From IMG/VR virus record IMGVR_UViG_3300032038_006501, positions 7,889-71,888 of that record: a DNA stretch of 64,000 bases. One strand, 5' to 3'. This stretch comes from a virus. Under the pieces are notes generated by a model, which was not told the origin of the DNA, ran no database searches, and worked only from the letters and a program-made list of their open reading frames with translations. This document shows positions 10,443 to 57,839 of the stretch, piece after piece. Position 1 is the stretch's first letter, and the number at the start of each line of letters is the position of its first letter. The translations under genes and the position numbers were made by a program.

Positions 10443-11253
10443 TCAAGATCCACCAAGAATAATAGCTTTGTCAGGGTCTACCGCAGATTGACAAAGAATT
10501 TGAATTAATTTATCATAACTGAAAGTATTCTTATAACCGGCCGTTGTAATATATATCTGACTTTGGTTAAGAGATTCATTAGGATCGACAAATCCATTTA
10601 CTCTTCGTTCAACGTTCATCAATGGAAGAATAACCTCGTTAAGAATATCTTGGTCAATGCCAACTACCTCTTCCATTAATCCAGCTTGGAAACGTTGTCC
10701 ACGAGTTTTTTCACTTGCTGCAACATTTTCAAGAGAGGAACCATTTTTAAAAGTATAAATAACACTATCTCGTGTTGTACGAGTTTTAGCTTTAATAATA
10801 CTTGTTTTATTATTAGTACGGGTATCCCAAATAATTTCATTAGCAAGTGCCGGAATTAAACGGCATAGCTCATCGACCTTTGCCTGAAGAATACTTGCAC
10901 TTTGCTCTTTACCACCAGCTACAGTAAATATTCGACAACCAGGGTATAAAATACACTTAATCATTAAACAAAGAACTGCCAAAAATGACTTAGAAAATGC
11001 TCGGGGAAATGTGCAAAAAGTATATTTATATCTCATGACTGCCCGCAAATAAACTCTTTGATAATAAAAGAAATGAAAAGTATTATCTGGATTTAATGAA
11101 CACAAATAATCTACAAAGATATCAGGGTAACAACGTCAAAAAGAAATTAACTCTTCTAATTGTTTTTTATCTTGACGAATACGCTCACGATCAACGGCTT
11201 CCCGCACCTGCTTAGATTCATTATATTCTAACAAGTCTTTAAGAGCCATTATT
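10443..11253 (-). CDS. terL: terminase large subunit, exon 1 (ATPase domain; deviant Walker A FPRAFSKS; Walker B GLMEEVVGID)
   Basis: ORF 10443..11105 extended upstream through a TGA to ATG 11253. Confidence 0.55.
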
Positions 11254-11254
11254 A

Positions 11255-12653
11255 TCACCTCTAACTTGAGCAAACACTTGTTCAGTTTCAGAAGCAATCA
11301 TATCATCTAAATTATTAGTTCAAAGTTCAGCTTCTAATTCTCCATCATCTTCTTCTTCTTCAACATAAGCAGATTGAGTTAAGAGAGCATCATAATTTGC
11401 ATCAGCTTCTTTTTGAGCTCTTTCAGATTCTTCAAGTTTTTGAATATAAGATTCAATAAGGTCACCAAGACCCATTTCATTCTTAACAAGATTACGAGTA
11501 TAAGCTTGCATATCTTTTAATGTAAAATCAACTTTATCTTCTTTAGCATCAATACCTGGTCTAAATTGGTCAATAAAAGTACCAGGTTCTAATTCTCGTT
11601 CAACAGCAGCTACTAATTCCCCAACAGAATCAATGTAAGCTTCTTGTTCTTCTTTGTTTTGAGCTTCTGTAAATTTTGCTGATTTCCGCAACTGATCAAG
11701 AACTCCTGCTAAATTCTTATAAGAAGTAAAATCTTCTATTTCAAGAGCTTTATCCATTTTAATAGATGTGCGGCAAATCTTCTTTAAAGCTTCCTCACGG
11801 TCAACATTCATTTCATAAGTACTAGTATACTTATTATAAAGATTTTCCATCTGTACTCATTCTGAAGGAGTAAAAGAAGCACCTCATTTAATAGTAAGAT
11901 ATTTAATATCTTCACTAGTTAAACTATTTTTAATTTGCATTTCATTTTCATCTATTGTGGTAGGCATATAACTCATCATAGTATCAACTGCGTTCTGTAA
12001 AGCAGCTTCTTCTTTTTTCTCTTGCATTTCAGCTATTTGCTGTTGGACTTGATGAAAAGCTTGTTTCTTACTTAATTTTTGTTTAGTTGCTTCGTCTCAA
12101 TCATGATCTTCTGGAGAAGCTTTATCTAAACCAAGTAATATTTTTTCTTTCTTAGTTGCTGTTGCCCCAAGAGGCTCATGATAAGCCATTAAAAGCTGAT
12201 TATCCCCTGTTAGTGTGCGGTACTGTTCAAGTGTTATTTCTCCCGCATCTAATTTAGTTTTAAATTCAGCTTTCTTTTCTTCAGAAACAATATTATCTCT
12301 TCCATGAATATTTACCCAATGTTCTGTAGCTGCATCACTGTCCGCATAACGCCATTTTCTTCAAGGATTCATATTTGTTGTGCGGATATAGCGACCAATT
12401 ACGGATTTGTTAGAAAACGTTCCAGGATTACGAAGGTAAGCAGCCTGAGCAACAGATACTCATAAAGGTTCTATATATGGTACATCAAATTCTTTTAAAA
12501 TTCAATCAAAAGTTGATGGATCATCATTTTTAATATAAGTGGTTAAACAATCTTTACAATAATTGAAACGAGTACCGTCTTTCTTTTTAAAGAAATTTGT
12601 TTCAGGTATCACTCGTCCGCATTTTTGACATGTCATTCTTTCTTTTGTAGCCA
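11255..12653 (-). CDS. hypothetical protein with N-terminal Zn-ribbon (CQKCGRV...CKDC) and acidic C-terminus; about 7 in-frame TGA codons
   Basis: Contains track ORF 11320..11850; continuous frame when TGA=W. Confidence 0.4.
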
Positions 12654-12664
12654 TTTATTTTTTT

Positions 12665-13737
12665 CCTCCTTTCTTTTTTCTACACTCTTTACAAATAGAA
12701 TAATAGCCATCTTTCGATGAATTAGGAGAAAAGAAAAACGAATGTGCAAGAAGAGAACGACCGCATTTCCCGCACGTCTTTCATCTATGCCCCATTGGTT
12801 CTTCATAAGTAAAATATCAAAGAAGATAATTTTTCTGAGCTTGTTCTGCTACTAATTTAGGAATTTTTTTAGTTCAAATAGTAGAATAATACTGTTCAGA
12901 ATGTTCTTCTTGATATTTCTCAAAAATCATTTCTTTTATTTCTTTATTTGTATAACCGTCTATTTTTCAAATAAGTACATCATAAAAAATAGGATATTTC
13001 TTTTCTAAAGCATCATCAACTACTTTTTCTAAATCCAAGAGGTGTCAATGAATGTCAGAGTCTAACATATCTCAAGTTTCTTGTTTTAATTGCTGATAAT
13101 ATTGAAGAAGGAAAGAAATAGAATCTGGTCTAAGTAATGATAATGGTTGGTCACTGTGCGGGATAAGGTCTTTATCAAAATATACTTTTTCTGGAATAGA
13201 TACATTTGCTAAACCAGAAATCATATTATTAGCTACAGACCGTCCTGATTGATTAGAGCCTTTAATCATATAAGCTTGTTTCCAACTATCAATTAAAGCA
13301 GTTTTTAATTTTTTCTTGCGGTAACTCGTCGTTGTCTCGTTGTATTGTCGTTCTAATGATGCTATTACATCCATGCATTCCCGCAACCCACGTATATTAT
13401 CTATATCCTCTTGGGTAATTGGGTCTTTATGGTCTAAAAGTTGATCTTTATTGTTATTGATAATGTTATAAATTCCATCTTCACCATTTTTTAGTTTATC
13501 AATTAATCCTTCATAAGAAATTTGTCTTTTTATTACTGTCGCATCTCTATTTTTAGTAACAATTGGATATTCTTCTGAACGTTCTTTTGTTGTCTGTTTT
13601 TTATCTCCGACATAAAGGAGGTAATCACTAAGATTTTTTAAATCTTGCGGAGATAATTCCTTTTGTTGAGATATGATTGATTCAACTAGAACTTTTCTAG
13701 CTGTTTCACTTTTTATATCATGATTTAATTGTATCAA
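12665..13737 (-). CDS. hypothetical protein with C-terminal Zn-ribbon (CGKCGRS...CKEC); first gene of the minus-strand late block
   Basis: ORF 13072..13737 plus TGA read-through. Confidence 0.4.
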
Positions 13738-13818
13738 TATATTTCACCTCCCCATATATATTATACCCAATTTTATAAAATTTTATACCAAAATTATTCA
13801 TTTTTGCCCAAAAAATTA

Positions 13819-17233: not shown

Positions 17234-17623
17234 ATGGCTACTACAAACAAGGTTACTCGTTTCGTCGCACTGTCCACCCTCATTGAGTTCGCTAAGGCTA
17301 ACGATTTTGATAACGCTGAGGTTATGGAGATTGCTGAAAAGATGTGCGACAAACTCAAGACCCCTAGCAAGGTTGGTACTACTACACACACAGCTAAGAG
17401 CAACGATAAATTTTTTGATGCTCATGTGGATGTGTTCGCAAATGGAACTACTCTCACAGCTCGTGAATACGCAAATGCTATTGACGGTTTCCCCTGCGAT
17501 ATCAATGGCCGTCCTAGTATTCATAAGGCTACTGCCATTCTTATTCGTGCGGTCAATGAGGGTAAATTGGTAAAGGTTCCTAGTGAAAAGAAAAGCGCTC
17601 CAATGAGTTACAAACTTGCATAA
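17234..17623 (+). CDS. early protein, paralog family A (C-terminal HKATAxL..G.N.G.L.KV..EKKS motif)
   Basis: One of four paralogs (17234, 20545, 27650, 21740-); GC-richer codon usage than neighbouring genes. Confidence 0.55.
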   Translation: MATTNKVTRFVALSTLIEFAKANDFDNAEVMEIAEKMCDKLKTPSKVGTTTHTAKSNDKFFDAHVDVFANGTTLTAREYANAIDGFPCDINGRPSIHKATAILIRAVNEGKLVKVPSEKKSAPMSYKLA

Positions 17624-19928: not shown

Positions 19929-20544
19929 TAATAAAAAAGGGTAGGATATAAAAATCCTACCCTAAATAATATTAACCAAGAGAAGAAAGTATAATGTGCG
20001 GGAATTGTGTTGACTTTGTGAATTAACCGATTTTGGCTTGACAATATTTTGCTCATATGAGATAATTATAATGGGAAGAGATCGACCTGGGCGAAAAATT
20101 ATAACACATTCGCGAGGAAAAGTCAAGAGAAAATTTCAATCTGCACAAAATCTTCATATTTGCCCAGATCTGTCCGCACATCAAATATTTAATTAAAAAA
20201 AATAAACAATTTTATATCAAAGTTCAAACATATCAAAAGATCAACGAGGACGAAAATTATACCATGCCCGCATGAGACTTGTCAAGAAAAATTTTTCTTC
20301 ACATTTCCCGCACAAATCAATCCTAAAACTAGTTCAAAATAAAAAGCTTAATAGTTCAAAATAAAAAAGTTAAATAGTTCAATTTCAGACCAAAAAGTTC
20401 AATTTCCGCAAATATGGAGGAATTGTGTGGAAGAGAATTTCTCGTGCCTACTGGGGCAAATCCATGATAATATATAGTTGTCCGAAGGGGAAAGAGAAAA
20501 TTCCGAAAGGCGGGATGGTTCCTCTGGACGGAAAGGGGTGCCTT

Positions 20545-20934
20545 ATGGCTACCAAGTTCAACGTCACTCGTAAGCAGGCTCTCGAATCCATTATCGAGTT
20601 TGCAAAGGCAAACGAGTACGATAACACGGATGTGATGGATGTGCTCGAGAACATGCTTTCTAAACTTCAAACCACTTCCAAGCGTTCGGGTGAGACTATA
20701 GCCCACAAAACTAATGCGACTATGCTTCAAAAGTACTTGAATCTCTTTGAGGGTGGTGTGGTTCTCACGTCTCGAGAGTTTGCAAATAGCGCAATTGGTT
20801 TCCCTGTTGATAACACGGGGCGTCCTTCTGTTCACAAAGCCACAGCAGTTTTGGTGCAGGGTGTAAATGATGGAATTCTTGTGAAGGTTTCACCTGAAAA
20901 GAAATCCCAAGCCATGGGGTACAAGTTGGCTTAG
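20545..20934 (+). CDS. early protein, paralog family A
   Basis: Paralog of 17234..17623 and 27650..28051; ATG at 20545 after a purine-rich leader. Confidence 0.55.
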   Translation: MATKFNVTRKQALESIIEFAKANEYDNTDVMDVLENMLSKLQTTSKRSGETIAHKTNATMLQKYLNLFEGGVVLTSREFANSAIGFPVDNTGRPSVHKATAVLVQGVNDGILVKVSPEKKSQAMGYKLA

Positions 20935-21739: not shown

Positions 21740-22138
21740 TTAAATTGCTTGATAACGGAAAGGATCGCTCTTCTTTTCCTTCTCAAGACGTTGAATCAGA
21801 CCAAGTTCAACACCAAGCTTGAGAACTGCGGTCGCCTTAGGAGCAGAAGAAATCTCATCAAAAAGTTCTTTAATCTCACCAGCAGTCTTAGGCTCAATAA
21901 GTGCAGGAAGGATAAGCTCTACAAGCTTCTCGTTCTCTTTACGCTTCTTGGAGTCTCCAGTAGTACGAGTGCGGTTAAGCTTCTGATACATATTGCCAAG
22001 AACTTCAAGAAGATCTTCAACAGTAGCATTTGGGTTCTCTGCCTGAACAGCTTCGATAAATTCATCTGAATATGCTTCAACATAATTACGGACGATAGCG
22101 ATTGCTGCCTTCTGAGTAATAGCATTCTTAGTAGTCAT
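21740..22138 (-). CDS. divergent paralog of family A (ATAVLKLGVELGLIQRLEKEKKS)
   Basis: The C-terminal motif matches the family A consensus. Confidence 0.5.
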   Translation of the reverse strand: MTTKNAITQKAAIAIVRNYVEAYSDEFIEAVQAENPNATVEDLLEVLGNMYQKLNRTRTTGDSKKRKENEKLVELILPALIEPKTAGEIKELFDEISSAPKATAVLKLGVELGLIQRLEKEKKSDPFRYQAI

Positions 22139-45005: not shown

Positions 45006-47288
45006 TTGGATAGTAGTACAACATTTATTAGTAAAGCTGGATTACAACGTTTTTATGCTAGAATCTATGAAGTTTTTGCTAATAAAATTCATACTCATGT
45101 TGGTACTGATGTAGATGCAGCTACTACGACTGTTCGTGGTACTGTTCAACCAGATGGGACTACAATTGATGTTACTGCTGCTGGTGTAATTAGTGCTAAG
45201 ACTGCCACAGGAAGTGCTAAAGGTATTGTACAACCAGATGGTACTTCTATTAATATTAATAATAATGGAACAATTAGTGTTCCTGACGCTAGTATGAGTC
45301 AGAAAGGACTTTTATCTTCTAGTGATAAAACTAAGTTAGATGGGGTTGCAACAGGAGCTACTAAAACAGAAGTTACTGATACTACTACTTTAACTATTAC
45401 TGATAGTGCGGGAAGTACATCTACTTTTTCTGGTATGACTGAGGCTGAAAGAAGTAAATTATCTGGAATTGGGGATAATGCTAATAATTATAGTTTACCT
45501 ACAGCTACATCAGATACTCTTGGTGGAATTAAAGTTGGTAATCATCTTTCAATTACAAACGGTGTTTTAACAATTGCTGATACTGTAGCATTAGTTTCTG
45601 CTTTATCTGGCTATGTTACAACAACTGCTTTCGATACTTTTAAAACAGATGATTATAATGTTTTTAAATTAGCTCGTGAAACTAATTTTGGTGAAGATAT
45701 TGGAGATGGACTTGCTGTCTCTCCTTCAAAGAAATTAGTAATTGATACTAACTTTCTTGGAGATTATATTTCAGAGCAGTTTACTCCAGGTGTTGTAGTT
45801 CCTACTTATAATAGTAAGACAGGACAATATACAGGGATTTCAGAATGACTAGCTAGTACACTTGAGGAAGATGAACATAAAGATGAAATTTATACAACTC
45901 GTATTCCTAAATGAGATACTAGTCATGATGTAGTTTGTGTTAAAACTGATGATAATGCTGGTCTTAGTGTGACACCTTCAACAGAAGCTTTTGCGGGAGC
46001 TGATGATTATAAAAATTTACCAGCTTTTAAAATTTGAGAAGTTAATGGTGGTTATAGTGGGACTGGTATTCCATATGTAACAGCATTTAAAGGTCGTGAC
46101 TCTTGGTTTAGTAGAACTGGTGAAAATGGAGATGTCTGGATTATGACCCGTATACTTTGGTATAAATGGGAAGAAGATGAAGATTATCAATATATTTCTA
46201 TTTCTGCTAGTCCACAAACAGGATTTATTCCTGAACCTGGTGCTGTATTAGCAAATGGACAGCTAAGACCATTCATTCTTAGAGCTAAGTATCCTATTGG
46301 AACTTACAACGGAAAGATTGCTTCTATCTCTGGTGTTATGACAAGAGTAAGAGATATTTCTTATAATACTTTAATTACTTTAACAGCAGCTAAAGGTGCA
46401 GCTTATGGTAGTTTATCTGTTGATGACTTATGGTATTTTAAGACAATGATTCTTATTAAATATGCAACAAAGTCTTCACAAACAGTTTTCCCTGGATGTA
46501 CAAGTCATTATTTAACTTATTATCCTGTTATTGATGAAACAGATGTAACTCATGTTACTTTATCTACTGCTAATGCTGCAAATATTCCTGTAGGAAGTAC
46601 AATTTGTATAGGTACCTCTGATAGAGGTGGACAGATTATTAATAATGCAAAAGTAATTTCTAAAGAAACTACAGCAGATGGCGTTGCATTAAATCTTAAT
46701 ACTACAACACCTTTTAGCACATTAACGACACATAGAGTAGATACACTACCTTGGTACTGTGGTTCTTGTGACGAAGTACTTGGTAATGATGGTTCACCTA
46801 CTGGTGATATGAATGGTAAAGAGCCATTTATTCTTCAAGGTATTGAATATATGGTTGGTGCTTGAGAAATTTCAACTGATATTATGTTTAATTGAGCTGA
46901 TGGTGAAGGACATATATTAGTTGGTAAAGACCGTTCTACTAAGGTTTCTGGTAATTCAACAGGATTTATTGATACTGGACTTAAAGTAGGACAAGGTTCA
47001 AATGATGGATGGGTATATCCAACAGATTTTACTCATCTAGATGGATTAATTATTACGACTAATACTGGTGCAAGTCAAACTACTGGTGTAGGAGATGGTA
47101 ATTGAACTTATAAGACTGGTACAACTCAAACAGGACTACGCGAGTTTCGGGCTTTCGGTGACCTCAGCAGTGGTGGTCTTGCAGGTGCTTCTTGCTTCGA
47201 CTCGCGTAACGGGCTTTCGTACGCGGGCTGGGTCAATGGCGGGCGCCTTTCCGGAACAGATACTTATGGTACTTGGTCTAATAGTTAA
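45006..47288 (+). CDS. tail fiber / receptor-binding protein, DGR target (variable repeat at the C-terminus); LLSSSDKTKLDG repeat; multiple in-frame TGA codons
   Basis: ORFs 45006..45848 and 46143..46865 share a frame and are bridged by TGA; the GC-rich C-terminal segment matches the downstream template repeat. Confidence 0.6.
47144..47247 (+). repeat. DGR variable repeat (VR), ending with the GC-rich IMH-like AATGGCGGGCGCC
   Basis: About 100 bp nearly identical to 47435..47539. All of roughly 18 mismatches fall at adenines of the downstream copy. Confidence 0.7.
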
Positions 47289-47434
47289 TTTTTAGTAATA
47301 TAGGTTTAGACATTTTTAAAAGAAGGGATTTGTAACGAAAATTGTTCTGAAGCCCTTGCTTATGTTTCTAAACTGTATTTCCTTTTCCTTTGGCGGGCGC
47401 TCCTTGGCGGGCGCCCGTGAGGTATAAAAAGTGC

Positions 47435-47539
47435 GGTTTCAGGCTTTCGGTAACCTCAACAATGGTGGTAATGCAGGTGCTTCATGCTTCAACTCGAATA
47501 ACGAGCTTTCGAACACGAACTGGAACAATGGCGGGCGCT
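47435..47539 (+). repeat. DGR template repeat (TR), preceded by a GC hairpin (GGCGGGCGC-TCCTT-GGCGGGCGCCC)
   Basis: Adenine-specific divergence from VR; followed by the reverse transcriptase gene. Confidence 0.7.
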
Positions 47540-47738
47540 CATATTGATATTCTAAGTTTTTTATATTACTTTTAGTAATATTAAATATACTTGCGTTACA
47601 TCTAGACTACATACTTTGCAAAAAGTCGTGATAGTTCATATGCCTGGCTCTTTTGAGCGAAATGTTATATTCAGAAAATTGGGTTAGTAGCTTATATAGT
47701 AGAAAACTCAATTTAGAATATCAATAAGAAAGTAAAAA

Positions 47739-48818
47739 ATGAAGTCATATTTAAAACATTTTACAATTACTCGTGATTTTATTGAGTATGCTTATAAGAA
47801 ATGACTTAAAGCAGAAGCGGGTCACAAGAATGAATGACGAGTTCAAAAAGAATATGATTCTAAAGACGCTCTTATTGACGAGATATATACAGAGATTAAA
47901 AATCGGACAGTTACTCTTAGACCTATTCATAGATATAATCATTTAGAAGAATCTAATGGTAAAATTAGAGTACTTGGAGTTGAATCTGTAAAACAACAAA
48001 TACTTGATTATATTATAGTTTTAGCTTTAGATGAATTTTTAAATAGAAGAATAGGTTATTGACAAATTTCTGGAATTAAAAATAGAGGAGCTGTTAGATA
48101 TTTAAGAAAAGTTCAAGGATGAACTAAAAATTGTAAATATCATGTTCATGTAGATATTAAACAATTTTATCCTTCTACTTCTAAATCTCTAGTCTACAAA
48201 GTTTTATTAAAATATATTAAAAATGAAGAAATCCTATATATAGCAAAATTATTGCTTAACTCTTATAATTTTGGTTTGGAGTTAGGAAGTTATTTTAGTT
48301 TATGTATGGCAAATTTAGTTGTAAGTTTTTGTTATCATGAACTAGAAGAAAAAAAGAATTTAAAACATCAAGTTTGGTATATGGATGATGGTTATTTATT
48401 TGGAGATGATCCAGAAGAATTAACTGCCCTTGTTAATGAATTAAGCACTTATCTTTTCCAAAATTTTCATCTAGAACTTAAAGCTTGAAAAATATGTTTA
48501 AATAGACATACGTATCGTAGTCGTACTGTTAAACATTCAATTTTTAAAGGAGAGCCAGTAGATTTAGCTGGTTATCGAATTACTCCAACTTGTATTACTT
48601 TAAGGAAAAATCTTTTTAGAAGATTATTACGTTCTTATCGAAGATTTTTAAAAAAAGGTGGAGAACGTCTTGCAAGAAGATGTTGCAGTTATTGGGGATA
48701 TTTAAAATATACTGATAGTTTAGGAGTACGACGACGTTATAATTTAGATAGAATAATGAAACAATGTAGCGCATTAATATCAGCCTTAGATAAAAGGAGG
48801 GCCAATGAGAAACAATAA
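47739..48818 (+). CDS. DGR-type reverse transcriptase (motif C YMDDGYLFG; GLELGSYFSL in place of QGxxxSP); 5 in-frame TGA codons
   Basis: RT motifs read across TGA codons. The standard-code track shows only the fragment 48252..48488. Confidence 0.65.
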
Positions 48819-49158
48819 AACTATTAGTGCAGATGAGATTTTACCTATTGAAATTATTAGTAGAAAAAGTCAGTCTGAAATTTGACTTCGTCGAAATATC
48901 GAATTTGTAGAAACTGAAGATCCAGAAGGTAATCCTTATTCTTACTGAACCGCAGATGAAGTTTCTGGAACTTTAAAACAAAATGTATCATATGAAGATA
49001 TAGAAGAAAACTTTGATGAATATTGGGAACTTTTAAATCTTCAAAAATTAACGGATAGAGAATTAGCAGAAAAAGTTTTAGAGTTAACTCAATTAGTTCA
49101 AGCTCAAATTGATTTTACAGCTCTTATGACTGATACCGTTATTGAAATGGAGGAATAA
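48805..49158 (+). CDS. hypothetical protein (117 aa, 2 TGA codons) downstream of the RT
   Basis: Open frame with TGA=W. Confidence 0.35.
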
Positions 49159-49161
49159 TAA

Positions 49162-49307
49162 ATGGCTAATGCAATTGAAACAAAAGCAGCTAAATATTAT
49201 CAAAAAGGACTTTGGAAGAAAGCTCAATTAATTGCTTTGGTAGAAAAAGGACTATTATCTCCTGAAGCCTACGAAAGAATCACTGGAGAAGAATACGTAG
49301 AAGAATA
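49162..49307 (+). CDS. XkdX-family small phage protein (LWKKAQLIALVEKGLLSPEAYERITGEEY)
   Basis: Motif typical of XkdX proteins found after tail fiber genes in Firmicutes phages. Confidence 0.5.
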
Positions 49308-49634
49308 AGAGAAATAGATAATTTTTTTATTATGATTTAGTTTAATTTAATGTGGAAGGTCACACAAACATGAGCGAAAGCTTAAAGATGCTTCAACTCG
49401 CCCTTAGTTCCATGTAGATCAAATTACGACATTAGAGCAGGCAGTAACCGAGCTAACTACATTATAGAAAGGTAGATAAGCAATGATTAATTACAAGAAG
49501 TACATTAAGATGGCTATCGAGCGGCGGAACTACCAGCTCGAAAATATGAAAAACCGCATCAATCGTTTACAAATTGACAGCAAATTGTCCAATGAGAATA
49601 AAGAAGGGCTATTACAGCTTATGGAGGACGCATA

Positions 49635-49856
49635 ATGGAAGCTCTTACACCTACATTACTCGTTGTGGGGATTGTTGACCTTTTAATGTTTCCCCTTATT
49701 TTATGGTTTATTAAACGGTATCTCGAAAAATTTGATAGCAAGCGAGAGGAAGCTCGCATAGAACGAGCTGAGGCTGAGCGCAGGGTTATGGAGCAGCGTG
49801 AAGCCGAGAGGACAATCATCCTTGCCATGAGTCGCACAATGTTGCTTGACAACTGA
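49635..49856 (+). CDS. holin-like small membrane protein (one TM then a charged tail) in a GC-richer insert
   Basis: ORF track; hydrophobic N-terminus. Confidence 0.35.
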   Translation: MEALTPTLLVVGIVDLLMFPLILWFIKRYLEKFDSKREEARIERAEAERRVMEQREAERTIILAMSRTMLLDN

Positions 49857-50231
49857 GAGAAGTGTATGGACAAAGGTTCCTATACACTCGAGGAACGCGA
49901 GGTGTACCACAAGTTATATGAAGCTTACAAGAACGATGGTGGAAATTCAATTATCGATGAGATAGCACCGCGCATTCGTGCATTGCCAATGGAAAGGCCA
50001 AAAGACTAGAGAATATAATATAGACAAAAAAGGAATTATACCACTAATGTATGTTTAATTCTCGCATCTATTGGTAAATTAAGAGAAGATATCCACAAAT
50101 TACGTTTTGAAAAATAATTATAAGAAGGGGTGTTTTTTTAAAAGCATCCCTTTTCATTTTATTTATTTAAGTTTATTTAATTTAAATGAGTTAAAATAAG
50201 TAAAATGAGAGTTTAGTAAAAAGGAGATACA

Positions 50232-53925
<3,694 letters not shown>

Positions 53926-53937
53926 AGGAGGAAGAGA

Positions 53938-54213
53938 ATGGCTTATAGTAGAATTAATTTTAAAAATGGTGCAGAAGGTGGAACTCCTTTAAGTGCTGCT
54001 AATATGAATCATATAGAAGATGGAATAGTTGAACTTGAAACTAATAAACAAGACAAACTAACTGCGGGAAGTAATATTACAATTACTGGAAACACTATTT
54101 CTGCAACTGTCCCGCAAGTTCCTAATGAAACAGTTGATTTAACTTTTACTTATAGTGATGGAACGAGTGAGGTAATTTCTTTTGTAATTGATGATAGTAA
54201 TATTGGAGAATAA
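53938..54213 (+). CDS. hypothetical tail protein (91 aa)
   Basis: ORF track. Confidence 0.4.
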   Translation: MAYSRINFKNGAEGGTPLSAANMNHIEDGIVELETNKQDKLTAGSNITITGNTISATVPQVPNETVDLTFTYSDGTSEVISFVIDDSNIGE

Positions 54214-54216
54214 AAA

Positions 54217-54918
54217 TGACAGCTATTAATTTTACAGATGTTCGTTCTATTGGATTACATAATAAGAATGTAACTCAAATTAGTTATACTAATTCAGGTG
54301 AAATTATTTGACCCACTCCTTCTTTACCTTCTAACTATACTCGTGGAGATTTTTTACAACAACATTTATCTGATAATAGAGGTGCTCATTTTTCTCTTCC
54401 TATTGGTTTAACAGAAGATATTCAATTTGAAATTACCTTAAGTTTTAATACTTTGGGAGAAGAAGAGGAAGAAAAAAGAAATATTTTAGGTTGTTATGAT
54501 GATGAAGAAAATGTAGTTTGAGGTTTACAAATTTTAAATAATAAATTATATTTTAATGAAGAACTTGTTCAAAATTTTTCTTTGTCAGAAGATACAATTT
54601 ACAATATAATTATATTAGATAATGAGTTAAGGATTAATGGAAATTTAGTTCATACTTCTTTAATTCATCCTTTTGAATGAAATTATTTAGGTTTATATGA
54701 TTTAATTTTATCAGATCAATCTATTGATATTAATTTTCAACAAGCAGATATAAATATTTATAAAGTAAGAATAAAAAACAATGGTATTTATTCTTATGAT
54801 TGTGTACCTGCTGAAAATAATAATACTCATTATACTGGTTTATATGATTTAATTGGTCAAAGATCTTTTTATGATAATCAAAATCCTACTATATTAACCG
54901 TAGAAACAAATTTTTAAG
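54217..54918 (+). CDS. hypothetical tail-associated protein (about 233 aa, 3 TGA codons)
   Basis: Open frame with TGA=W; not seen in the standard-code track. Confidence 0.35.
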
Positions 54919-55096
54919 TTGATATAAAAAACTTTTTGACAACTTGTCGTAAAATATTGTATAATATATTTACAGAGTCGGAAAGAGGTTAAACAAAATG
55001 TTTTGATTGAAAAAGAAAAGAAAAGAAGTCGATAGAAAAAAATAAATGACAAATGAATTAAAAACATAGTATAATATATTTAAAGAAATTGATAAT

Positions 55097-55166
55097 TCCT
55101 CATGGTGTAATTGGCAACACAATAGGTTCTGGTCCTATTATTTCACGTTCGAGTCGTGATGAGGAA
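55097..55166 (+). tRNA. tRNA-Gln (anticodon CTG)
   Basis: Manual fold: acceptor TCCTCAT/ATGAGGA, anticodon arm ATAGG-TTCTGGT-CCTAT, T arm CACG-TTCGAGT-CGTG. Confidence 0.55.
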
Positions 55167-55171
55167 GCCAT

Positions 55172-55247
55172 GGGCTTGTAATCCAACGGCAGAGATAGCA
55201 GACTTAAAATCTGTTCAGTGTGAGTTCGAATCTCACCAGGCCCACCA
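55172..55247 (+). tRNA. type-I (short variable loop) tRNA with anticodon TAA (Leu-family anticodon). Its acceptor GGGCTTG/CAGGCCC is identical to that of tRNA-Leu(TAG) at 57598.
   Basis: Manual fold: anticodon arm GCAGA-CTTAAAA-TCTGT, T arm GTGAG-TTCGAAT-CTCAC, A73, CCA encoded. Confidence 0.5.
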
Positions 55248-55368
55248 AATTTGTTTACAACAGATAAGATAGTTAAGAATAGCTACCTTAATGAAAAGTG
55301 AATAAACCTCAACCACCTGCTTATCTGTTATTTTTTATTATTGTTGTTGAGGTAGAAAGTTGAGGAAA

Positions 55369-56172
55369 ATGGCAAGACCTAAGAAAATTTATCAAAAAGG
55401 TGATAAAGTTGGTATTTGACAATTAGAATTTGTAGAAGAGGTTGAATCACATATTACTTCAGGTGGCTCTAAACATAGACAGTTTAAAGTAATTTGTCCA
55501 ACATGTCATAATATATTTATTACCAAACAAATTCAATTAAATAAAAAAGCTAAACCTGTTAAGCAATGTCCTGCTTGTTCTTTAAAAGAAAATAAAAAAA
55601 GGATATCTGAGGTAGGAAAACAAAGTAGTAATAATTTAATTGGACAAAAATTTGGTAAATTGTTAGTCTTATCTAAGACTGATAAAAGATATAGAAATAA
55701 TGTTATTTGGCATTGTAAATGTGATTGTGGTAATGAAAAAGATATTCTTGGAAGAGATTTGTTAAGAGGTCATACTATTTCTTGTGGATGTATAAAATCT
55801 CGTGGAGAAGAATTAATTAGTAATATTTTAAAAGAAATGAATGTTTCTTTTGAAAAAGAAAAAACATTTATAGATTGTGTGAATCCTAAAACTAATTTTT
55901 TATTAAGATTTGATTTTTACTTACCTGATTACAATATTATTATAGAGTATGATGGCGAACAACATTTTAAATATAATGATACAGGATGAAATACTAAAGA
56001 AAATTTTAAACAAACTATTTATAGAGATAATATTAAAAATAATTATTGTAAAAATAATAATATTAAATTAATTAGAATACCTTATACAGATTTTAATAAA
56101 ATTAATCAAAAATATATTGTCGATCTGGCGGAATTGGCAGACGCGGTTGGCCCAAACCCAACTTCATTATAG
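55369..56172 (+). CDS. endonuclease with N-terminal Cys-rich module and C-terminal DUF559/Vsr-like domain (IIIEYDGEQHFKYND); 2 TGA codons; 3' end overlaps tRNA-Leu(CAA)
   Basis: ORF 55660..55989 extended across TGA codons; paralog of 7014..7397. Confidence 0.5.
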
Positions 56173-56203
56173 AGTGAGAGTTCAAGTCTCTCGATCGACA
56201 CCA
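56119..56203 (+). tRNA. tRNA-Leu (anticodon CAA), type II
   Basis: Acceptor GTCGATC/GATCGAC, anticodon arm GTTGG-CCCAAAC-CCAAC, long variable arm, T arm GAGAG-TTCAAGT-CTCTC, A73 plus CCA. Confidence 0.55.
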
Positions 56204-56219
56204 AAATGTTAATAATAAT

Positions 56220-56351
56220 TTGACGTGATAGTTAAAACAGTTACTTCTCTGAGATTAGCTCAATTGGTAGAGCGTTTGTTTTAGGTACAAAGTGTAATAG
56301 GTTCGAATCCTATATTTTAGATTTTATACCTGTTTTATAGATTTCCGTCAA
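56220..56351 (+). ncRNA. structured RNA cassette U1 (Y-RNA-like family): helix I TTGACG/CGTCAA, conserved internal loop TGATAGT / TAGATTTC, helix II TAAAACAG/CTGTTTTA, conserved TTACTTC; cargo is tRNA(TAG)
   Basis: Family of 8 units with compensatory changes in both helices (see findings). Confidence 0.55.
56249..56321 (+). tRNA. type-I tRNA with anticodon TAG (Leu-family anticodon but short variable loop)
   Basis: D arm GCTC-AATTGGTA-GAGC, anticodon arm TTTGT-TTTAGGT-ACAAA, T arm ATAGG-TTCGAAT-CCTAT. Confidence 0.5.
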
Positions 56352-56364
56352 TTTTAAATGAAAT

Positions 56365-56460
56365 AGGCGGTGCTGCCTATCCGGCGATAGGGACGGGCTT
56401 CAAACCCGTTTAGTCAGGTCCAAACTGGCTCGTGGGGATCGACACCTCCACCGCCTGCCA
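56365..56460 (+). tRNA. tRNA with anticodon TCA (reads UGA): candidate opal suppressor with tRNA-Sec/allo-tRNA-like architecture (8-bp acceptor AGGCGGTG/CACCGCCT, 6-bp D stem CCTATC/GATAGG with 4-nt loop, anticodon arm ACGGG-CTTCAAA-CCCGT, long variable arm, G73, CCA)
   Basis: Manual fold; the anticodon loop is identical to the E. coli selC loop CTTCAAA; about 96 nt long. Confidence 0.55.
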
Positions 56461-56469
56461 TCGTAAATA

Positions 56470-56553
56470 AAGCGTGATAGTAAGAAAGTTACTTCGCACA
56501 TAATGCAACAGACTCTTAATCTGTTAATAACACTTTCTTTATTATTTCCGCTA
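56470..56553 (+). ncRNA. structured RNA cassette U2 (helix I AGCG/CGCT, helix II AAGAAAGT/ACTTTCTT); cargo is a degenerate tRNA-Lys-like anticodon hairpin (ACAGA-CTCTTAA-TCTGT)
   Basis: Covariation relative to U1/U4. Confidence 0.5.
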
Positions 56554-56586
56554 ATATTAAATATTTATTGGTGAGAATAAATATTT

Positions 56587-56665
56587 AGTAAGATGATTGT
56601 AAGAAAGATACTTCAACTCATAAACAGTTACGGCATAGAGCTTTCTTTCTTAAAAATATCTCTTA
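56587..56665 (+). ncRNA. structured RNA cassette U3 (helix I GTAAGA/TCTTAC, helix II TAAGAAAG/CTTTCTTA); short cargo
   Basis: Covariation. Confidence 0.45.
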
Positions 56666-56684
56666 CATTCAGTTTATTAATAAT

Positions 56685-56812
56685 TTGACGTGATAGTTGA
56701 AATAGTTACTTCATATTTAACTCAATGGGTAGAGTAATTATCTTGTAAATAATCTGTTATTGGTTCGAGTCCAATGATATGTGTTTTTCACTATTTCATA
56801 AATTTCCGTCAA
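56685..56812 (+). ncRNA. structured RNA cassette U4 (helix I TTGACG/CGTCAA, helix II GAAATAGT/ACTATTTC); cargo is tRNA-Thr(TGT)
   Basis: Covariation. Confidence 0.55.
56711..56783 (+). tRNA. tRNA-Thr (anticodon TGT)
   Basis: D arm ACTC-AATGGGTA-GAGT, anticodon arm ATTAT-CTTGTAA-ATAAT, T arm ATTGG-TTCGAGT-CCAAT. Confidence 0.55.
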
Positions 56813-56820
56813 TTTTTTAT

Positions 56821-56896
56821 GGGTTGTTAGCTCAGTTGGTAGAGCAGAGGACTCTTAATCCTAAGGCCCAGGGTTCGAATCCCTGACAACCCACCA
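56821..56896 (+). tRNA. tRNA-Lys (anticodon CTT)
   Basis: Acceptor GGGTTGT/ACAACCC, D arm GCTC-AGTTGGTA-GAGC, loop CTCTTAA, T arm CAGGG-TTCGAAT-CCCTG, CCA. Confidence 0.6.
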
Positions 56897-56904
56897 TCGG
56901 AAAT

Positions 56905-56981
56905 CTGCCCATGGCGCAACTTGGTAGCGCTCATGATTTGGGTTCATGGGGTTCTCTGTTCGAATCAGAGTGGGCAGACCA
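56905..56981 (+). tRNA. tRNA-Pro (anticodon TGG)
   Basis: Acceptor CTGCCCA/TGGGCAG, anticodon arm CATGA-TTTGGGT-TCATG, T arm CTCTG-TTCGAAT-CAGAG, CCA. Confidence 0.6.
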
Positions 56982-56990
56982 TGGGCTGAG

Positions 56991-57058
56991 GGACTGCTAG
57001 GAGTGGTCACCTGTCTTGCAAACAGGAAAGCAGCTGGGTTCGAATCCCAGTCGGTCCA
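56991..57058 (+). tRNA. tRNA, probably Ala (anticodon TGC); D arm atypical
   Basis: Anticodon arm CCTGT-CTTGCAA-ACAGG, T arm CTGGG-TTCGAAT-CCCAG. Confidence 0.4.
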
Positions 57059-57120
57059 GAGAATAAAATTTTGGACAAAAATGAATAATTTGTAGTATAA
57101 TTTTTATATTAATATTAAAT

Positions 57121-57191
57121 TCTCTTGTAGCTCAAAAATAGAGCGCACGACTGATAATCGTGAGACAAAGGAGCGTTACTTTTCGAGAGAA
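57121..57191 (+). tRNA. tRNA-Ile (anticodon GAT)
   Basis: Acceptor TCTCTTG/CGAGAGA, anticodon arm CACGA-CTGATAA-TCGTG, unusual T loop AGCGTTA. Confidence 0.5.
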
Positions 57192-57196
57192 CTAAT

Positions 57197-57284
57197 GGGA
57201 CGGCTGCAGAGTTGGAGAACTGCGCTGGTCTGTAAAACCAGTGGCTTAAGTCCTGAGTGTGTTCGAATCACACCCGTCCCACCA
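57197..57284 (+). tRNA. tRNA-Tyr (anticodon GTA), long variable arm
   Basis: Acceptor GGGACGG/CCGTCCC, anticodon arm CTGGT-CTGTAAA-ACCAG, T arm GTGTG-TTCGAAT-CACAC, CCA. Confidence 0.6.
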
Positions 57285-57294
57285 GTATTAAAAT

Positions 57295-57369
57295 TGGAAG
57301 GTAGCTCAATGGTAGAGCCATCGGCTGTTAACCGATCTGTTGTGGGTTCGAGTCCCACCCTTTCAGCCA
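57295..57369 (+). tRNA. tRNA-Asn (anticodon GTT)
   Basis: Anticodon arm ATCGG-CTGTTAA-CCGAT, T arm GTGGG-TTCGAGT-CCCAC, CCA. Confidence 0.55.
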
Positions 57370-57370
57370 T

Positions 57371-57447
57371 GGGACTGTAGCTTAGTTGGTTTAAAGCGTC
57401 GGACTGTCTATCCGAAGATCGTGGGTTCGAATCCCATCAGTCTCGCC
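57371..57447 (+). tRNA. tRNA-Asp (anticodon GTC)
   Basis: Acceptor GGGACTG/CAGTCTC, anticodon arm TCGGA-CTGTCTA-TCCGA, CCA. Confidence 0.55.
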
Positions 57448-57452
57448 AATAT

Positions 57453-57526
57453 GGAGTCTATAGTATAATGGTTAATTATGATTGGTTGTGGCCCAATAGA
57501 TGAAAGTTTAATTCTTTCTAGATTCC
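57453..57526 (+). tRNA. tRNA-His (anticodon GTG)
   Basis: Acceptor GGAGTCT/AGATTCC, anticodon arm ATTGG-TTGTGGC-CCAAT, T arm GAAAG-TTTAATT-CTTTC. Confidence 0.5.
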
Positions 57527-57597
57527 CGGAATGCTTTGTCTAAAACCTTCACGTGGTGCATTCTGATTTCGACTAATATTAGACAATATATTATAAA

Positions 57598-57681
57598 GGG
57601 CTTGTGATGGAATTGGCAGACATGATTGCCTTAGAAGCAATTGCTTTATGCGTGGAAGTTCGAGTCTTCTCAGGCCCACCA
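57598..57681 (+). tRNA. tRNA-Leu (anticodon TAG), type II
   Basis: Acceptor GGGCTTG/CAGGCCC, anticodon arm ATTGC-CTTAGAA-GCAAT, long variable arm, CCA. Confidence 0.55.
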
Positions 57682-57702
57682 AAAATAAAAAATTTTTTTT
57701 GA

Positions 57703-57735
57703 CAGATTGAATTAAAATATAATATAATATAAATA
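57703..57735 (+). promoter_or_regulatory. sigma70-type promoter (TTGACA-17-TATAAT) preceding the GC-rich non-coding segment
   Basis: Read directly. Confidence 0.45.
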
Positions 57736-57839
57736 CAGTGAGAGAGAGAAAAAAAGTAAGAAAACGAAGTTAAAAAAAAATATTAGACAGCTGAAAAAAG
57801 AATATGATATAATATTATTAAAGAAAGGGCAAGAGCAAC

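What the first reader, a model, noticed from the sequence alone, without database searches (positions are those of the whole stretch)
45006..48818. Complete diversity-generating retroelement targeting the tail fiber, with a TGA-recoded reverse transcriptase
The C-terminal roughly 100 bp of the tail fiber gene (VR, 47144-47247) is duplicated downstream (TR, 47435-47539). Both end in the same GC-rich element AATGGCGGGCGC (IMH-like). Every one of the roughly 18 differences between the copies falls on an adenine of the downstream copy (TR A versus VR G/T/C). That is the hallmark of DGR mutagenic homing. The RT gene follows immediately (YMDDGYLFG; GLELGSYFSL at the DGR-specific motif). It needs 5 TGA read-throughs to be intact. 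No Avd-like gene is evident between VR and TR, but a GC hairpin precedes TR. The unknown 117-aa gene after the RT could serve as the accessory factor. VR and TR are about 55-60% GC in a roughly 30% GC genome, consistent with horizontal acquisition.
Basis: seen in the sequence. Interest (0 to 1): 0.7.

Follow-up and report, generated by a model that had tools for sequence, protein, structure and literature searches.

The report
Active tail-fibre DGR in TGA-recoded phage
This is a genuine, recently active diversity-generating retroelement that rewrites the tip of a phage receptor-binding protein; it is a well-known kind of system, here in a phage that reads TGA as tryptophan and with a conserved small acidic partner gene instead of the usual Avd protein.

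Summary
VR (47144-47246) and TR (47436-47538) align without gaps over 103 bp. All 17 differences fall on TR adenines (P about 7e-13). The TR has 11 AAY codons and cannot mutate to a stop codon.

The downstream gene (47739-48818) is an intact reverse transcriptase if TGA is read as Trp. Its five in-frame TGAs sit at invariant or near-invariant Trp columns. Its closest solved relative is the Bordetella DGR enzyme bRT.

A homologue of the target's C-terminal domain models confidently. Its best structural match is the DGR variable protein TaqVP, which has a C-type-lectin fold.

Four close relatives from metagenomes show recent activity. All 26 TR-adenine columns vary between their VRs, against 4 of 77 other columns. 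Three of those four are TR changes copied into the same genome's VR.

No Avd was found. An acidic protein of about 117 aa follows the RT in every related locus examined, so it may be a cassette component. Its function is unknown.

The GC-rich repeat reflects constraints on the TR, not recent horizontal transfer.

Verdict: a new member of a known kind, of moderate interest.

The parts
45006..47288 (+). Target gene: a 760-aa tail-fibre or receptor-binding protein under code 4 (TTG start, 6 in-frame TGA). The N-terminal part carries fibre repeats. The C-terminal ~420 aa belong to a large family with no Pfam assignment that ends in a C-type-lectin-fold variable domain.
47144..47246 (+). Variable repeat (VR): the last 103 bp of homology, encoding aa 714-747 of the target. 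It ends 42 nt before the stop codon.
   Evidence: 17 of 17 mismatches to TR lie at TR-A. Among 5 related genomes, 26 of 26 TR-A columns vary against 4 of 77 others (Fisher 1.6e-20). VR identity is 76-85%, against 94-96% for the upstream flank.
47237..47246 (+). A-free GC-rich 3' boundary element TGGCGGGCGC of VR (IMH-like). The same element ends TR at 47529-47538. Sequence beyond it differs between VR and TR.
47387..47422 (+). GC-rich hairpin 14 nt upstream of TR. It holds two further copies of GGCGGGCGC (10-bp inner stem 47393-47402/47409-47418, 4-bp outer stem). Its role is unknown. It has no U-tract.
   Evidence: Fold dG -23.6, z -3.1. Relatives have GC hairpins in the same interval, some followed by T-runs.
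47436..47538 (+). Template repeat (TR): 27 A, made up of 11 AAY codons, CAG, GAG, ACG and two silent third-position A. No stop codon is reachable under code 4 or code 11. About 5.5e14 protein variants are possible.
   Evidence: TR is 97-100% identical among 5 related genomes, and TR substitutions are mirrored in each genome's own VR.
47539..47738 (+). Non-coding spacer between TR and RT, with conserved blocks (GACTAC 47605-47610; hairpin 47647-47658 followed by GAAAT; GGGTTAGTAG 47681-47690; helix 47679-47684/47706-47717). It is the positional counterpart of the Bordetella 'Sp' RNA needed for priming.
   Evidence: RNAalifold on 12 diverse loci. 93% of cells paired against 24-37% in slid controls. 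29 cells changed on both sides against 9 +/- 2.4 in shuffles, 0 of 500. Coordinates. z -3.7 for the whole TR-spacer RNA.
47739..48818 (+). DGR reverse transcriptase, 359 aa, with 5 in-frame TGA read as Trp. It has YMDD, motif 4 as LGSYFSL, and an Arg matching bRT R74.
   Evidence: Pfam RVT_1 3e-10. 52 full-length homologues with W at the TGA columns. The profile hits bRT 8ub7_A at 4.5e-23, against 4e-9 for retron-type and 4e-8 for group II intron RTs. TGG/TGA swap at W319 between the window and L001.
48805..49158 (+). Conserved acidic 117-aa protein (pI 4.15) that overlaps the RT stop by 14 nt and has its own AGGAGG ribosome-binding site. It is a candidate fourth cassette component of unknown function.
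   Evidence: 41 of 42 IMG/VR loci encoding a homologue have the RT directly upstream. The 42nd keeps a remnant of the RT C-terminus. 7 of 7 loci sampled by RT have it. No Pfam, PDB or PHROG match, and the model is low-confidence.
49162..49308 (+). XkdX-family small protein (context: the tail-to-lysis junction typical of phages of Gram-positive hosts).
   Evidence: Pfam Phage_XkdX 3e-10. Same position in FP_Epona and in relatives.

Best explanation
This is a functional diversity-generating retroelement of the Avd-less 'target-TR-RT' architecture, carried by a large AT-rich phage that decodes TGA as tryptophan.

Inferred mechanism, by analogy with the Bordetella phage DGR:
1. An RNA spanning TR and the structured 200-nt spacer is transcribed.
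2. The RT copies TR into cDNA, faithfully except opposite adenines.
3. The cDNA replaces the homologous 103 bp at the 3' end of the receptor-binding-protein gene. The A-free element TGGCGGGCGC marks the 3' boundary.

Because nearly all TR adenines sit in AAY codons, 14 residues on the ligand-binding face of a C-type-lectin-fold domain are randomised without ever creating a stop codon. The likely benefit to the phage is a change of receptor specificity.

What is shown:
- the TR/VR anatomy;
- the RT family assignment;
- TGA encoding Trp;
- the fold of the target family;
- VR variation confined to TR-A sites among close relatives;
- copying of TR substitutions into VR;
- a conserved, covarying spacer RNA.

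What is inferred: the priming mode, the homing mechanism, and whether the conserved acidic 117-aa protein takes part.
For: - **A-restricted mismatches:** 17 of 17 in the window, and 561 of 588 across 41 related loci.
- **RT:** intact under code 4, with TGA at invariant Trp columns W22, W33, W108, W128 and W250. There is a TGG/TGA interchange at W319 between close relatives. The best solved relative is bRT at E 4.5e-23. The residues matching bRT R74 and I181, which promote A-mutagenesis (PMC7826257), are Arg and Leu.
- **Activity:** five related genomes have TRs 97-100% identical and VRs only 76-85% identical. 26 of 26 TR-A columns vary against 4 of 77 others. Three of those four are TR changes mirrored in the genome's own VR.
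- **TR design:** it excludes stop codons.
- **Spacer RNA:** helices supported by compensatory changes.
- **Cultured phages:** the same cassette order occurs in the annotated RT-bearing phages FP_Epona and Arawn.
Against: - No read-level data were available, so activity in this particular genome, as opposed to its lineage, is inferred.
- No Avd, HRDC or other known accessory gene was found in the cassette or among 19 neighbouring or small ORFs scanned. In the Bordetella system the RT alone is inactive (PMC6182149).
- Motif 4 ends in Leu rather than the signature Gln, which contacts the incoming dNTP in bRT (bioRxiv 10.1101/2023.10.23.563531).
- The fold was modelled on a 44%-identical homologue, not on the window protein itself.
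- I could not identify a primer-template duplex.
Confidence: 0.93

Rival explanations
1. Relic DGR. The RT is a pseudogene broken by five genuine TGA stops. The VR/TR differences are fossils of past activity.
For: Under the standard code the RT splits into fragments of at most 78 aa. The only UCA tRNA in the window is selenocysteine-shaped rather than Trp-like.
Against: All five TGAs lie at invariant or near-invariant Trp columns. TGA is as common as TGG in sense positions window-wide (71 against 70), and no gene ends in TGA. There is a TGG/TGA swap at a conserved Trp between relatives. The RT contains no TAA or TAG. The VRs of relatives that are 94-96% identical differ at every TR-A site, and they track TR substitutions.
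Confidence: 0.03
2. The DGR is active and the acidic 117-aa protein is its RT cofactor. On this reading it is a functional replacement for Avd in this clade, acting for example in RNP assembly or processivity.
For: - Every detectable homologue is adjacent to a DGR-type RT or to an RT remnant. This holds for the 42 IMG/VR loci, 7 RT-sampled loci and the one INPHARED record. It includes RTs only 22-26% identical to the window's.
- The protein stays with the cassette in L056, where the cassette lies after the lysis genes and no XkdX or holin follows.
- Its start overlaps the RT stop in most loci.
- No Avd is present.
- There is a precedent: the acidic candidate accessory CH1 is found only in Avd-less DGRs (PMC5758913).
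Against: The protein is acidic (pI 4.15), which makes a nucleic-acid-binding Avd-like role unlikely. The predicted fold is low-confidence and not a helical bundle. The target gene also co-occurs in all these loci, so linkage cannot separate an RT partner from a target partner. L022 keeps the gene although the RT is gone.
Confidence: 0.35
3. The DGR is active, but the 117-aa protein belongs to the variable protein's biology, for example as a fibre assembly chaperone or adaptor. On this reading the RT works alone or with host factors, or with an accessory gene outside the window.
For: Genes immediately downstream of fibre genes commonly encode assembly factors (general phage knowledge). The gene sits between the fibre module and XkdX, where PBSX-like phages carry small fibre-associated genes. 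It is retained in L022 without an RT. 29% of catalogued DGRs have no accessory gene at all (PMC5758913).
Against: No homologue was found beside a fibre gene without an RT or RT remnant, in 50,697 phage records or in IMG/VR. In L022 the fibre is unrelated to the target family, so a specific chaperone would have no client there.
Confidence: 0.4
4. The repeat is an ordinary duplication or gene-conversion tract with chance differences, unrelated to the RT.
For: None beyond the bare existence of a repeat.
Against: P about 7e-13 for all mismatches falling on A. The same pattern occurs in 41 related loci. There is directional TR-to-VR copying.
Confidence: 0.005

Closest known systems
Bordetella phage BPP-1 DGR (mtd-avd-TR-brt)
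   Same: - An RT of the same family: the profile hits bRT at 4.5e-23 over nearly its full length, with YMDD and the R74 and I181 counterparts conserved.
- A TR/VR pair of about 100-130 bp at the 3' end of a tail receptor-binding gene.
- Adenine-specific mutagenesis with AAY codons.
- A GC-rich, A-free 3' boundary.
- A structured non-coding RNA downstream of TR.
- A C-type-lectin-fold target.
   Different: No Avd. Motif 4 ends in L, not Q. An acidic 117-aa gene follows the RT. No hairpin lies directly after the VR boundary. The genes are read with TGA as Trp.
Thermus aquaticus DGR variable protein TaqVP (PDB 5vf4)
   Different: Sequence identity is 15%. TaqVP is a cellular protein, not a phage tail protein. 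The comparison was made on a 44%-identical homologue of the window protein.
DGR-type cassettes of the cultured Gram-positive phages Faecalibacterium phage FP_Epona and Butyrivibrio phage Arawn
   Same: Identical gene order: tail protein, gap, RT, small acidic protein (pI 4.0-4.2), XkdX-family protein, holin and endolysin. FP_Epona is described as carrying a DGR in PMC5883640.
   Different: RT identity is only 25-28%. The small acidic proteins are shorter (71-87 aa as annotated) and only marginally similar to the 117-aa family. These phages use the standard code. I did not check their TR/VR pairs.
Architecture A (TR-RT core, no accessory gene) and CH1-type DGRs of Wu et al. 2018 (PMC5758913)
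   Same: Avd-less cassettes make up 29% of their set. CH1 is a small acidic (pI 4.7) candidate accessory found only in Avd-less DGRs.
   Different: CH1 is 160-169 aa and found in Bacteroides-lineage DGRs. The 117-aa family is found with Gram-positive-type phage modules.
[quoted passage not shown]
   Same: DGRs targeting tail fibre proteins in large AT-rich gut phages with tRNA arrays and stop-codon reassignment. Seven of their RT genes contain suppressed stop codons.
   Different: The suppression reported in their RT genes is amber, and their RTs carry the standard GxxxSQ motif. Here the codon is opal read as Trp and the motif is GxxxSL. Relatedness of the phages was not tested.

Membership tests
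Diversity-generating retroelement (DGR) | A template/variable repeat pair whose differences are restricted to adenines of the template copy | tested here: met
   17 of 17 mismatches at TR-A, P 7e-13. 561 of 588 in 41 related loci.
Diversity-generating retroelement (DGR) | An adjacent, intact reverse transcriptase of the DGR clade | tested here: met
   A 359-aa ORF under code 4. The profile's best PDB hit is bRT 8ub7_A at 4.5e-23, against 4e-9 for retron-type RT and 4e-8 for group II intron RT. Catalytic D139 and YMDD are invariant. tblastn hits in phage records include BPP-1 brt, ANMV-1 and FP_Epona.
Diversity-generating retroelement (DGR) | A hydrophobic [I/V/L] in place of the retroviral Q at the start of RT motif 4 (bRT I181, a promoter of A-mutagenesis), and the Arg matching bRT R74 | tested here: met
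   LGSYFS, with L182 aligned to I181. R77, invariant in the clade, is aligned to R74 (PMC7826257).
Diversity-generating retroelement (DGR) | The terminal Q of the common signature [I/V/L]GxxxSQ. This is a signature of most accepted DGR RTs but not all: Epsilon crAss-like DGR RTs have GxxxSP (PMC12386605). | tested here: not met
   The motif ends in Leu (L188), invariant across the 20 aligned clade members.
Diversity-generating retroelement (DGR) | VR lies at the 3' end of a target ORF, in a fold that tolerates variation (C-type lectin), and TR adenines sit in AAY-type codons | tested here: met
   VR encodes aa 714-747 of 760. There are 11 AAY codons and no reachable stop. The homologue model matches TaqVP, TvpA and Mtd. 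The fold was shown for a 44%-identical homologue, not for the window protein itself.
Diversity-generating retroelement (DGR) | Evidence of mutagenic homing: VR varies at TR-A sites while TR stays constant, and TR changes are transferred to VR | tested here: met
   Five related genomes: 26 of 26 against 4 of 77 columns. TR substitutions at 47153 and 47227-47228 are mirrored in each genome's own VR. Read-level variation was not testable.
Diversity-generating retroelement (DGR) | A GC-rich, A-free initiation (IMH-like) element at the 3' end of VR and TR, with divergent sequence beyond it | tested here: met
   TGGCGGGCGC ends both repeats, and homology stops there. Its function cannot be tested with these tools.
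BPP-1-type DGR (Architecture B, Avd-dependent) | An avd gene (basic four-helix-bundle protein, about 110-130 aa) within the cassette | tested here: not met
   No ORF lies between VR, TR and RT. There was no Avd-family Pfam hit in the 5 cassette or neighbouring proteins or in 19 further ORFs. Small ORFs elsewhere in the window, and the rest of the genome, were not all scanned.
Avd (for the 117-aa protein) | Basic pI, an all-helical bundle, and Avd-family sequence similarity | tested here: not met
   pI 4.15. The predicted secondary structure is three strands plus helices, at pLDDT 58. There were no Pfam, NCBIfam, PDB or PHROG matches.
CH1 candidate accessory (Wu et al. 2018) | A small acidic protein flanking Avd-less DGRs, with sequence homology to CH1 | not testable with these tools
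   The properties are similar (acidic, Avd-less context), but CH1 is 160-169 aa and its sequences were not held.
XkdW-like protein (for the 117-aa protein) | A match to the XkdW Pfam family, positioned before XkdX | tested here: not met
   The position before XkdX is shared. However, none of the 6 family members hits an XkdW family at E <= 1.

The most novel reading that the evidence does not exclude
The acidic protein of about 100-123 aa encoded directly after the RT is an obligatory, previously unrecognised accessory subunit of a large Avd-less clade of DGRs. This clade occurs in phages of Gram-positive gut and rumen bacteria and has RT motif GxxxSL. On this reading the protein takes over the role that Avd plays in the Bordetella system.
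Probability: 0.3. Interest if true: 0.6.

Novelty: new member of a known kind. Interest (0 to 1): 0.4.

Why it matters
DGRs on phage receptor-binding proteins are well established, so the element itself is not a surprise. Three aspects give it some value.

1. **Annotation.** It shows concretely that standard-code annotation hides intact DGRs in opal-recoded phages, where the RT is split into fragments of 78 aa or less.
2. **Natural record of homing.** Five near-identical genomes give an unusually clean picture: every TR adenine has been used, and TR substitutions are copied into VR.
3. **The Avd-less clade.** The element belongs to a populous clade that lacks Avd. In about 50 loci this clade always carries a small acidic gene after the RT, together with a covarying spacer RNA.

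How Avd-less DGRs carry out reverse transcription is unresolved. This clade offers a defined candidate partner and a defined RNA to test.

Tried and rejected
- **Horizontal transfer from GC content: rejected.** The RT is 28% GC and the target 36% GC, like the genome. AT-rich relative L016 also has a TR of 48% GC. Non-A positions of TRs are 63-79% GC everywhere.
- **L022 as an RT-less carrier of the 117-aa family: overturned.** It first looked like a phage carrying the family without a DGR, which would make it an ordinary phage gene. A profile search then found the last ~40 residues of the RT directly upstream (E 1.5e-9), so L022 is a decayed cassette.
- **Avd search: nothing found**.
- **Fold of the 117-aa protein: uninformative.** The AF2 model had pLDDT 58, and Foldseek against PDB found nothing at E < 1. 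PDB profile, Pfam, NCBIfam and PHROG searches gave no credible hit.
- **Exhaustive representative search with the 117-aa protein: refused.** The code-4 translation is not an 'exact' window product.
- **Spacer:TR primer-template duplex: not found.** I looked for one like Bordetella Sp47-56:TR117-129 by complementarity in 15 loci. The result was no better than random windows.
- **Hairpin after the VR boundary, as in BPP-1: none**.
- **Promoter and terminator scan of 44700-49500: not above chance**.
- **Rfam: no family in the cassette**.
- **DNA-level search of phage records:** only a 69-bp fibre-repeat hit to crAss-like cr10_1.
- **Second VR in the window: none**.
Full report
**1. The observation**

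Anchoring the two copies on their shared 3' end gives an ungapped alignment at an offset of 292 bp. VR is 47144-47246 and TR is 47436-47538, each 103 bp. There are 17 mismatches. All lie at adenines of the downstream copy: 17 of its 27 A, replaced in VR by G 11 times, T 4 times and C 2 times. If 17 mismatches fell at random on 103 positions, the chance that all hit A is 7.3e-13.

Homology stops exactly after GGCGGGCGC in both copies. That 9-mer occurs four times in the 64 kb window, all inside the cassette, against 0.02 expected. The four sites are the VR end, the TR end and two in a hairpin at 47387-47422 just upstream of TR (dG -23.6 kcal/mol, z -3.1). A pattern built from TR with A replaced by N finds only these two copies in the window, so there is a single target.

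**2. The genetic code and the RT**

With TGA as a stop, the region breaks into short ORFs. With only TAA and TAG as stops there are three clean genes:
- a 760-aa target (45006-47288, 6 in-frame TGA);
- a 359-aa RT (47739-48818, 5 TGA);
- a 117-aa gene (48805-49158, 2 TGA).

The RT has 52 full-length homologues in public data. In an alignment of 20 of them, the five TGA positions fall on columns that are invariant or nearly invariant Trp: W22, W33, W108, W128 and W250. One TGA of the 117-aa gene is an invariant Trp of its family. At RT residue 319 the window has TGG where its 96%-identical relative has TGA.

Window-wide, sense TGA (71) is as frequent as TGG (70), and no gene ends in TGA. TGA therefore encodes Trp here, and the RT is intact, not a pseudogene.

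A profile of the RT family hits the Bordetella DGR enzyme bRT (PDB 8ub7_A) at E 4.5e-23 over almost its whole length. The next hits are a retron-type RT at about 4e-9 and group II intron RTs from about 4e-8. The catalytic Asp residues and YMDD are invariant.

The two bRT residues shown experimentally to promote adenine mutagenesis are R74 and I181 (PMC7826257). They correspond to an invariant Arg and to Leu. The common signature [I/V/L]GxxxSQ ends in Leu instead of Gln throughout this clade (LGSYFSL). This departs from the usual motif, but another accepted DGR group (GxxxSP in Epsilon crAss-like phages, PMC12386605) shows the last position is not universal.

**3. The target**

The N-terminal 340 aa carry fibre-type repeats also seen in the neighbouring 1230-aa collagen-like protein. 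They give a weak Pfam head-fibre hit.

The C-terminal 421 aa belong to a family of more than 400 proteins with no Pfam assignment. Some members are labelled as coming from Gordonibacter or Atopobiaceae. In relatives the gene follows Prophage_tail and BppU_N baseplate genes and precedes holin and endolysin. A receptor-binding tail protein is therefore the reasonable reading.

In the VR reading frame, TR holds 11 AAY codons plus CAG, GAG, ACG and two silent third-position A. No substitution at A can create a stop codon under either code. About 5.5e14 protein variants are reachable. This is the classical DGR design.

**4. Activity**

Scans of public collections with the A-masked TR pattern, and a look-up of the nearest RT homologue, recovered four close relatives (L001, L050, L051, L052). 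They are 94-96% identical to the window in the 400 bp upstream of VR.

Their TRs are 97-100% identical to the window's, but their VRs only 76-85%. Every one of the 26 columns that are A in all TRs varies among the VRs. Only 4 of the 77 other columns vary (Fisher 1.6e-20).

Three of those four are substitutions in TR (T/C at 47153; AC/GG at 47227-47228) that are mirrored in the same genome's VR. This is the signature of TR-to-VR information transfer after these lineages split. One non-A difference (C to G in L001) remains unexplained.

Across 41 more distant loci of the same family, 561 of 588 TR/VR mismatches are at TR adenines. Read-level heterogeneity could not be examined.

**5. Non-coding parts**

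The 200-nt spacer between TR and the RT start is alignable across loci whose RTs are only about 40% identical. It contains conserved blocks and helices with compensatory changes:
- 93% of cells are paired, against 24-37% when partners are slid;
- 29 cells are changed on both sides, against 9 +/- 2.4 in shuffles, 0 of 500.

By position, this matches the Bordetella 'Sp' RNA that is required for self-primed cDNA synthesis (PMC6182149; bioRxiv 10.1101/2023.10.23.563531). Homology was not tested. I could not identify a primer-template duplex.

The GC hairpin upstream of TR has counterparts in relatives. Its role is unknown.

**6. Accessory gene**

No ORF lies between VR, TR and RT. No Avd-family hit was found among the cassette genes or 19 other ORFs scanned. 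Avd-less cassettes are already documented: 29% of a curated set, and a whole lineage (PMC5758913).

The 117-aa protein is acidic (pI 4.15). It is predicted, at low confidence, to have three strands followed by helices. It matches nothing in Pfam, NCBIfam, PHROGs or the PDB, so it is not Avd-like.

Its linkage to the RT is nevertheless striking.
- **Found by searching for the protein itself.** A scan of IMG/VR found 42 loci, and 41 have a DGR-type RT ending just upstream. That includes RTs only 24-26% identical to the window's.
- **The one exception.** L022 retains the last ~40 residues of the RT directly upstream.
- **Found by searching for the RT.** All seven loci carry the protein.
- **A rearranged cassette.** In L056 the cassette sits after the lysis genes with no XkdX or holin downstream, yet the protein is still there.
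- **Deposited phage records.** The only hit among 50,697 records is also RT-adjacent.

The cultured phages FP_Epona and Arawn have the same order: tail protein, RT, small acidic protein, XkdX.

Because the target gene co-occurs in all these loci, linkage alone cannot say whether the protein serves the RT or the variable protein. I put the two readings at roughly equal odds.

**7. Composition**

VR is 62% GC and TR 50% GC, in a 30.5% GC window. But the RT gene is 28% GC and the target as a whole 36%. Another AT-rich relative has a 48% GC TR. In all TRs the non-A positions are 63-79% GC.

The composition is explained by two things: A is confined to the variable codons, and the scaffold codons are rich in Gly and Ala. 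It does not indicate recent horizontal acquisition.

**8. Comparison and verdict**

The element works like, and qualifies as, a DGR. It does not belong to the Avd-dependent BPP-1 architecture. It fits the Avd-less 'target-TR-RT' architecture.

DGR RT genes interrupted by suppressed stop codons have been reported for amber-recoded crAss-like phages (PMC12386605), so a recoded RT is not unprecedented either.

I classify it as a new member of a known kind. Interest is moderate, and comes mainly from the conserved acidic gene and spacer RNA of this Avd-less clade.

Noticed in passing
window 56365-56460 (+): The only tRNA in the window with a UCA anticodon is 96 nt and 63% GC, and it passes Rfam's selenocysteine-tRNA model (50 bits, gathering score 47). 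It has an 8-bp acceptor stem starting A1-U72, discriminator G73, an encoded CCA, a 6-bp D stem with a 4-nt loop, and a long variable arm. Yet TGA sits at invariant Trp positions in the phage's genes. An ordinary tRNA-Trp(CCA) lies at 59069-59142. Which tRNA reads TGA as Trp, and what this Sec-shaped tRNA is charged with, are both open.
   Followed up: partly
window 29574-34927 and 37765-43522, compared with 9390-13770 and 44109-56172: TGA use is mosaic. Two blocks of genes use only TGG for Trp (37 TGG, 0 TGA). These blocks include an RNA ligase, an 805-aa protein, a metallophosphatase, a TROVE/Ro60-like protein and a 596-aa protein. Neighbouring blocks, including the DGR, use TGA as often as TGG or more often. 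This resembles the split between recoded and unrecoded genes described for other stop-codon-recoded phages.
   Followed up: partly
window 59405-60052 (+): A full-length ROOL RNA (Rfam RF03087, 292 bits) is embedded in a 25-gene tRNA array (55096-61925).
   Followed up: no
window 39951-41402 (+): A 483-aa protein has a TROVE domain (Ro60-like, Pfam 2.9e-14), near the tRNA array and the RNA ligase (29574-30563). Together these suggest an RNA repair or quality-control module in the phage.
   Followed up: no
window 61677-61767 (+) and 57121-57191 (+): ARAGORN calls a 91-nt tRNA-Ile(UAU), unusually long for an Ile tRNA. Rfam finds one more tRNA that ARAGORN missed (anticodon loop CUGAUAA, i.e. GAU, Ile).
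   Followed up: partly
window 17234-17623, 20425-20934, 27617-28051, 21740-22138: There are several paralogous small ORFs (about 130-170 aa) sharing motifs such as '...FAKAN(D/E)(F/Y)DN..VM...KATA(I/V)L...G.LVKV...' They have no Pfam match. This is a repeated gene family of unknown function in the early region.
   Followed up: no
L022 5877-5995 (IMGVR_UViG_3300045988_178224): This is a decayed cassette. The target, TR and most of the RT have been replaced by unrelated tail genes. The last ~40 codons of the RT and the acidic 123-aa gene survive, followed by an XkdX-like gene, holin and endolysin.
   Followed up: yes
L001 position 2473 (VR column 55, matching window 47198): There is one TR/VR difference at a non-adenine position (TR C, VR G) in a close relative. 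Across 41 related loci about 5% of mismatches are at non-A positions, mostly T.
   Followed up: partly
window 50232-53924 (+): A 1230-aa protein has collagen-like G-x-y repeats and at least six copies of the '(G)LLSxxDKxKLDxI' fibre motif that also occurs in the N-terminal part of the DGR target. It is probably a second fibre that shares an attachment or shaft module with the target.
   Followed up: no
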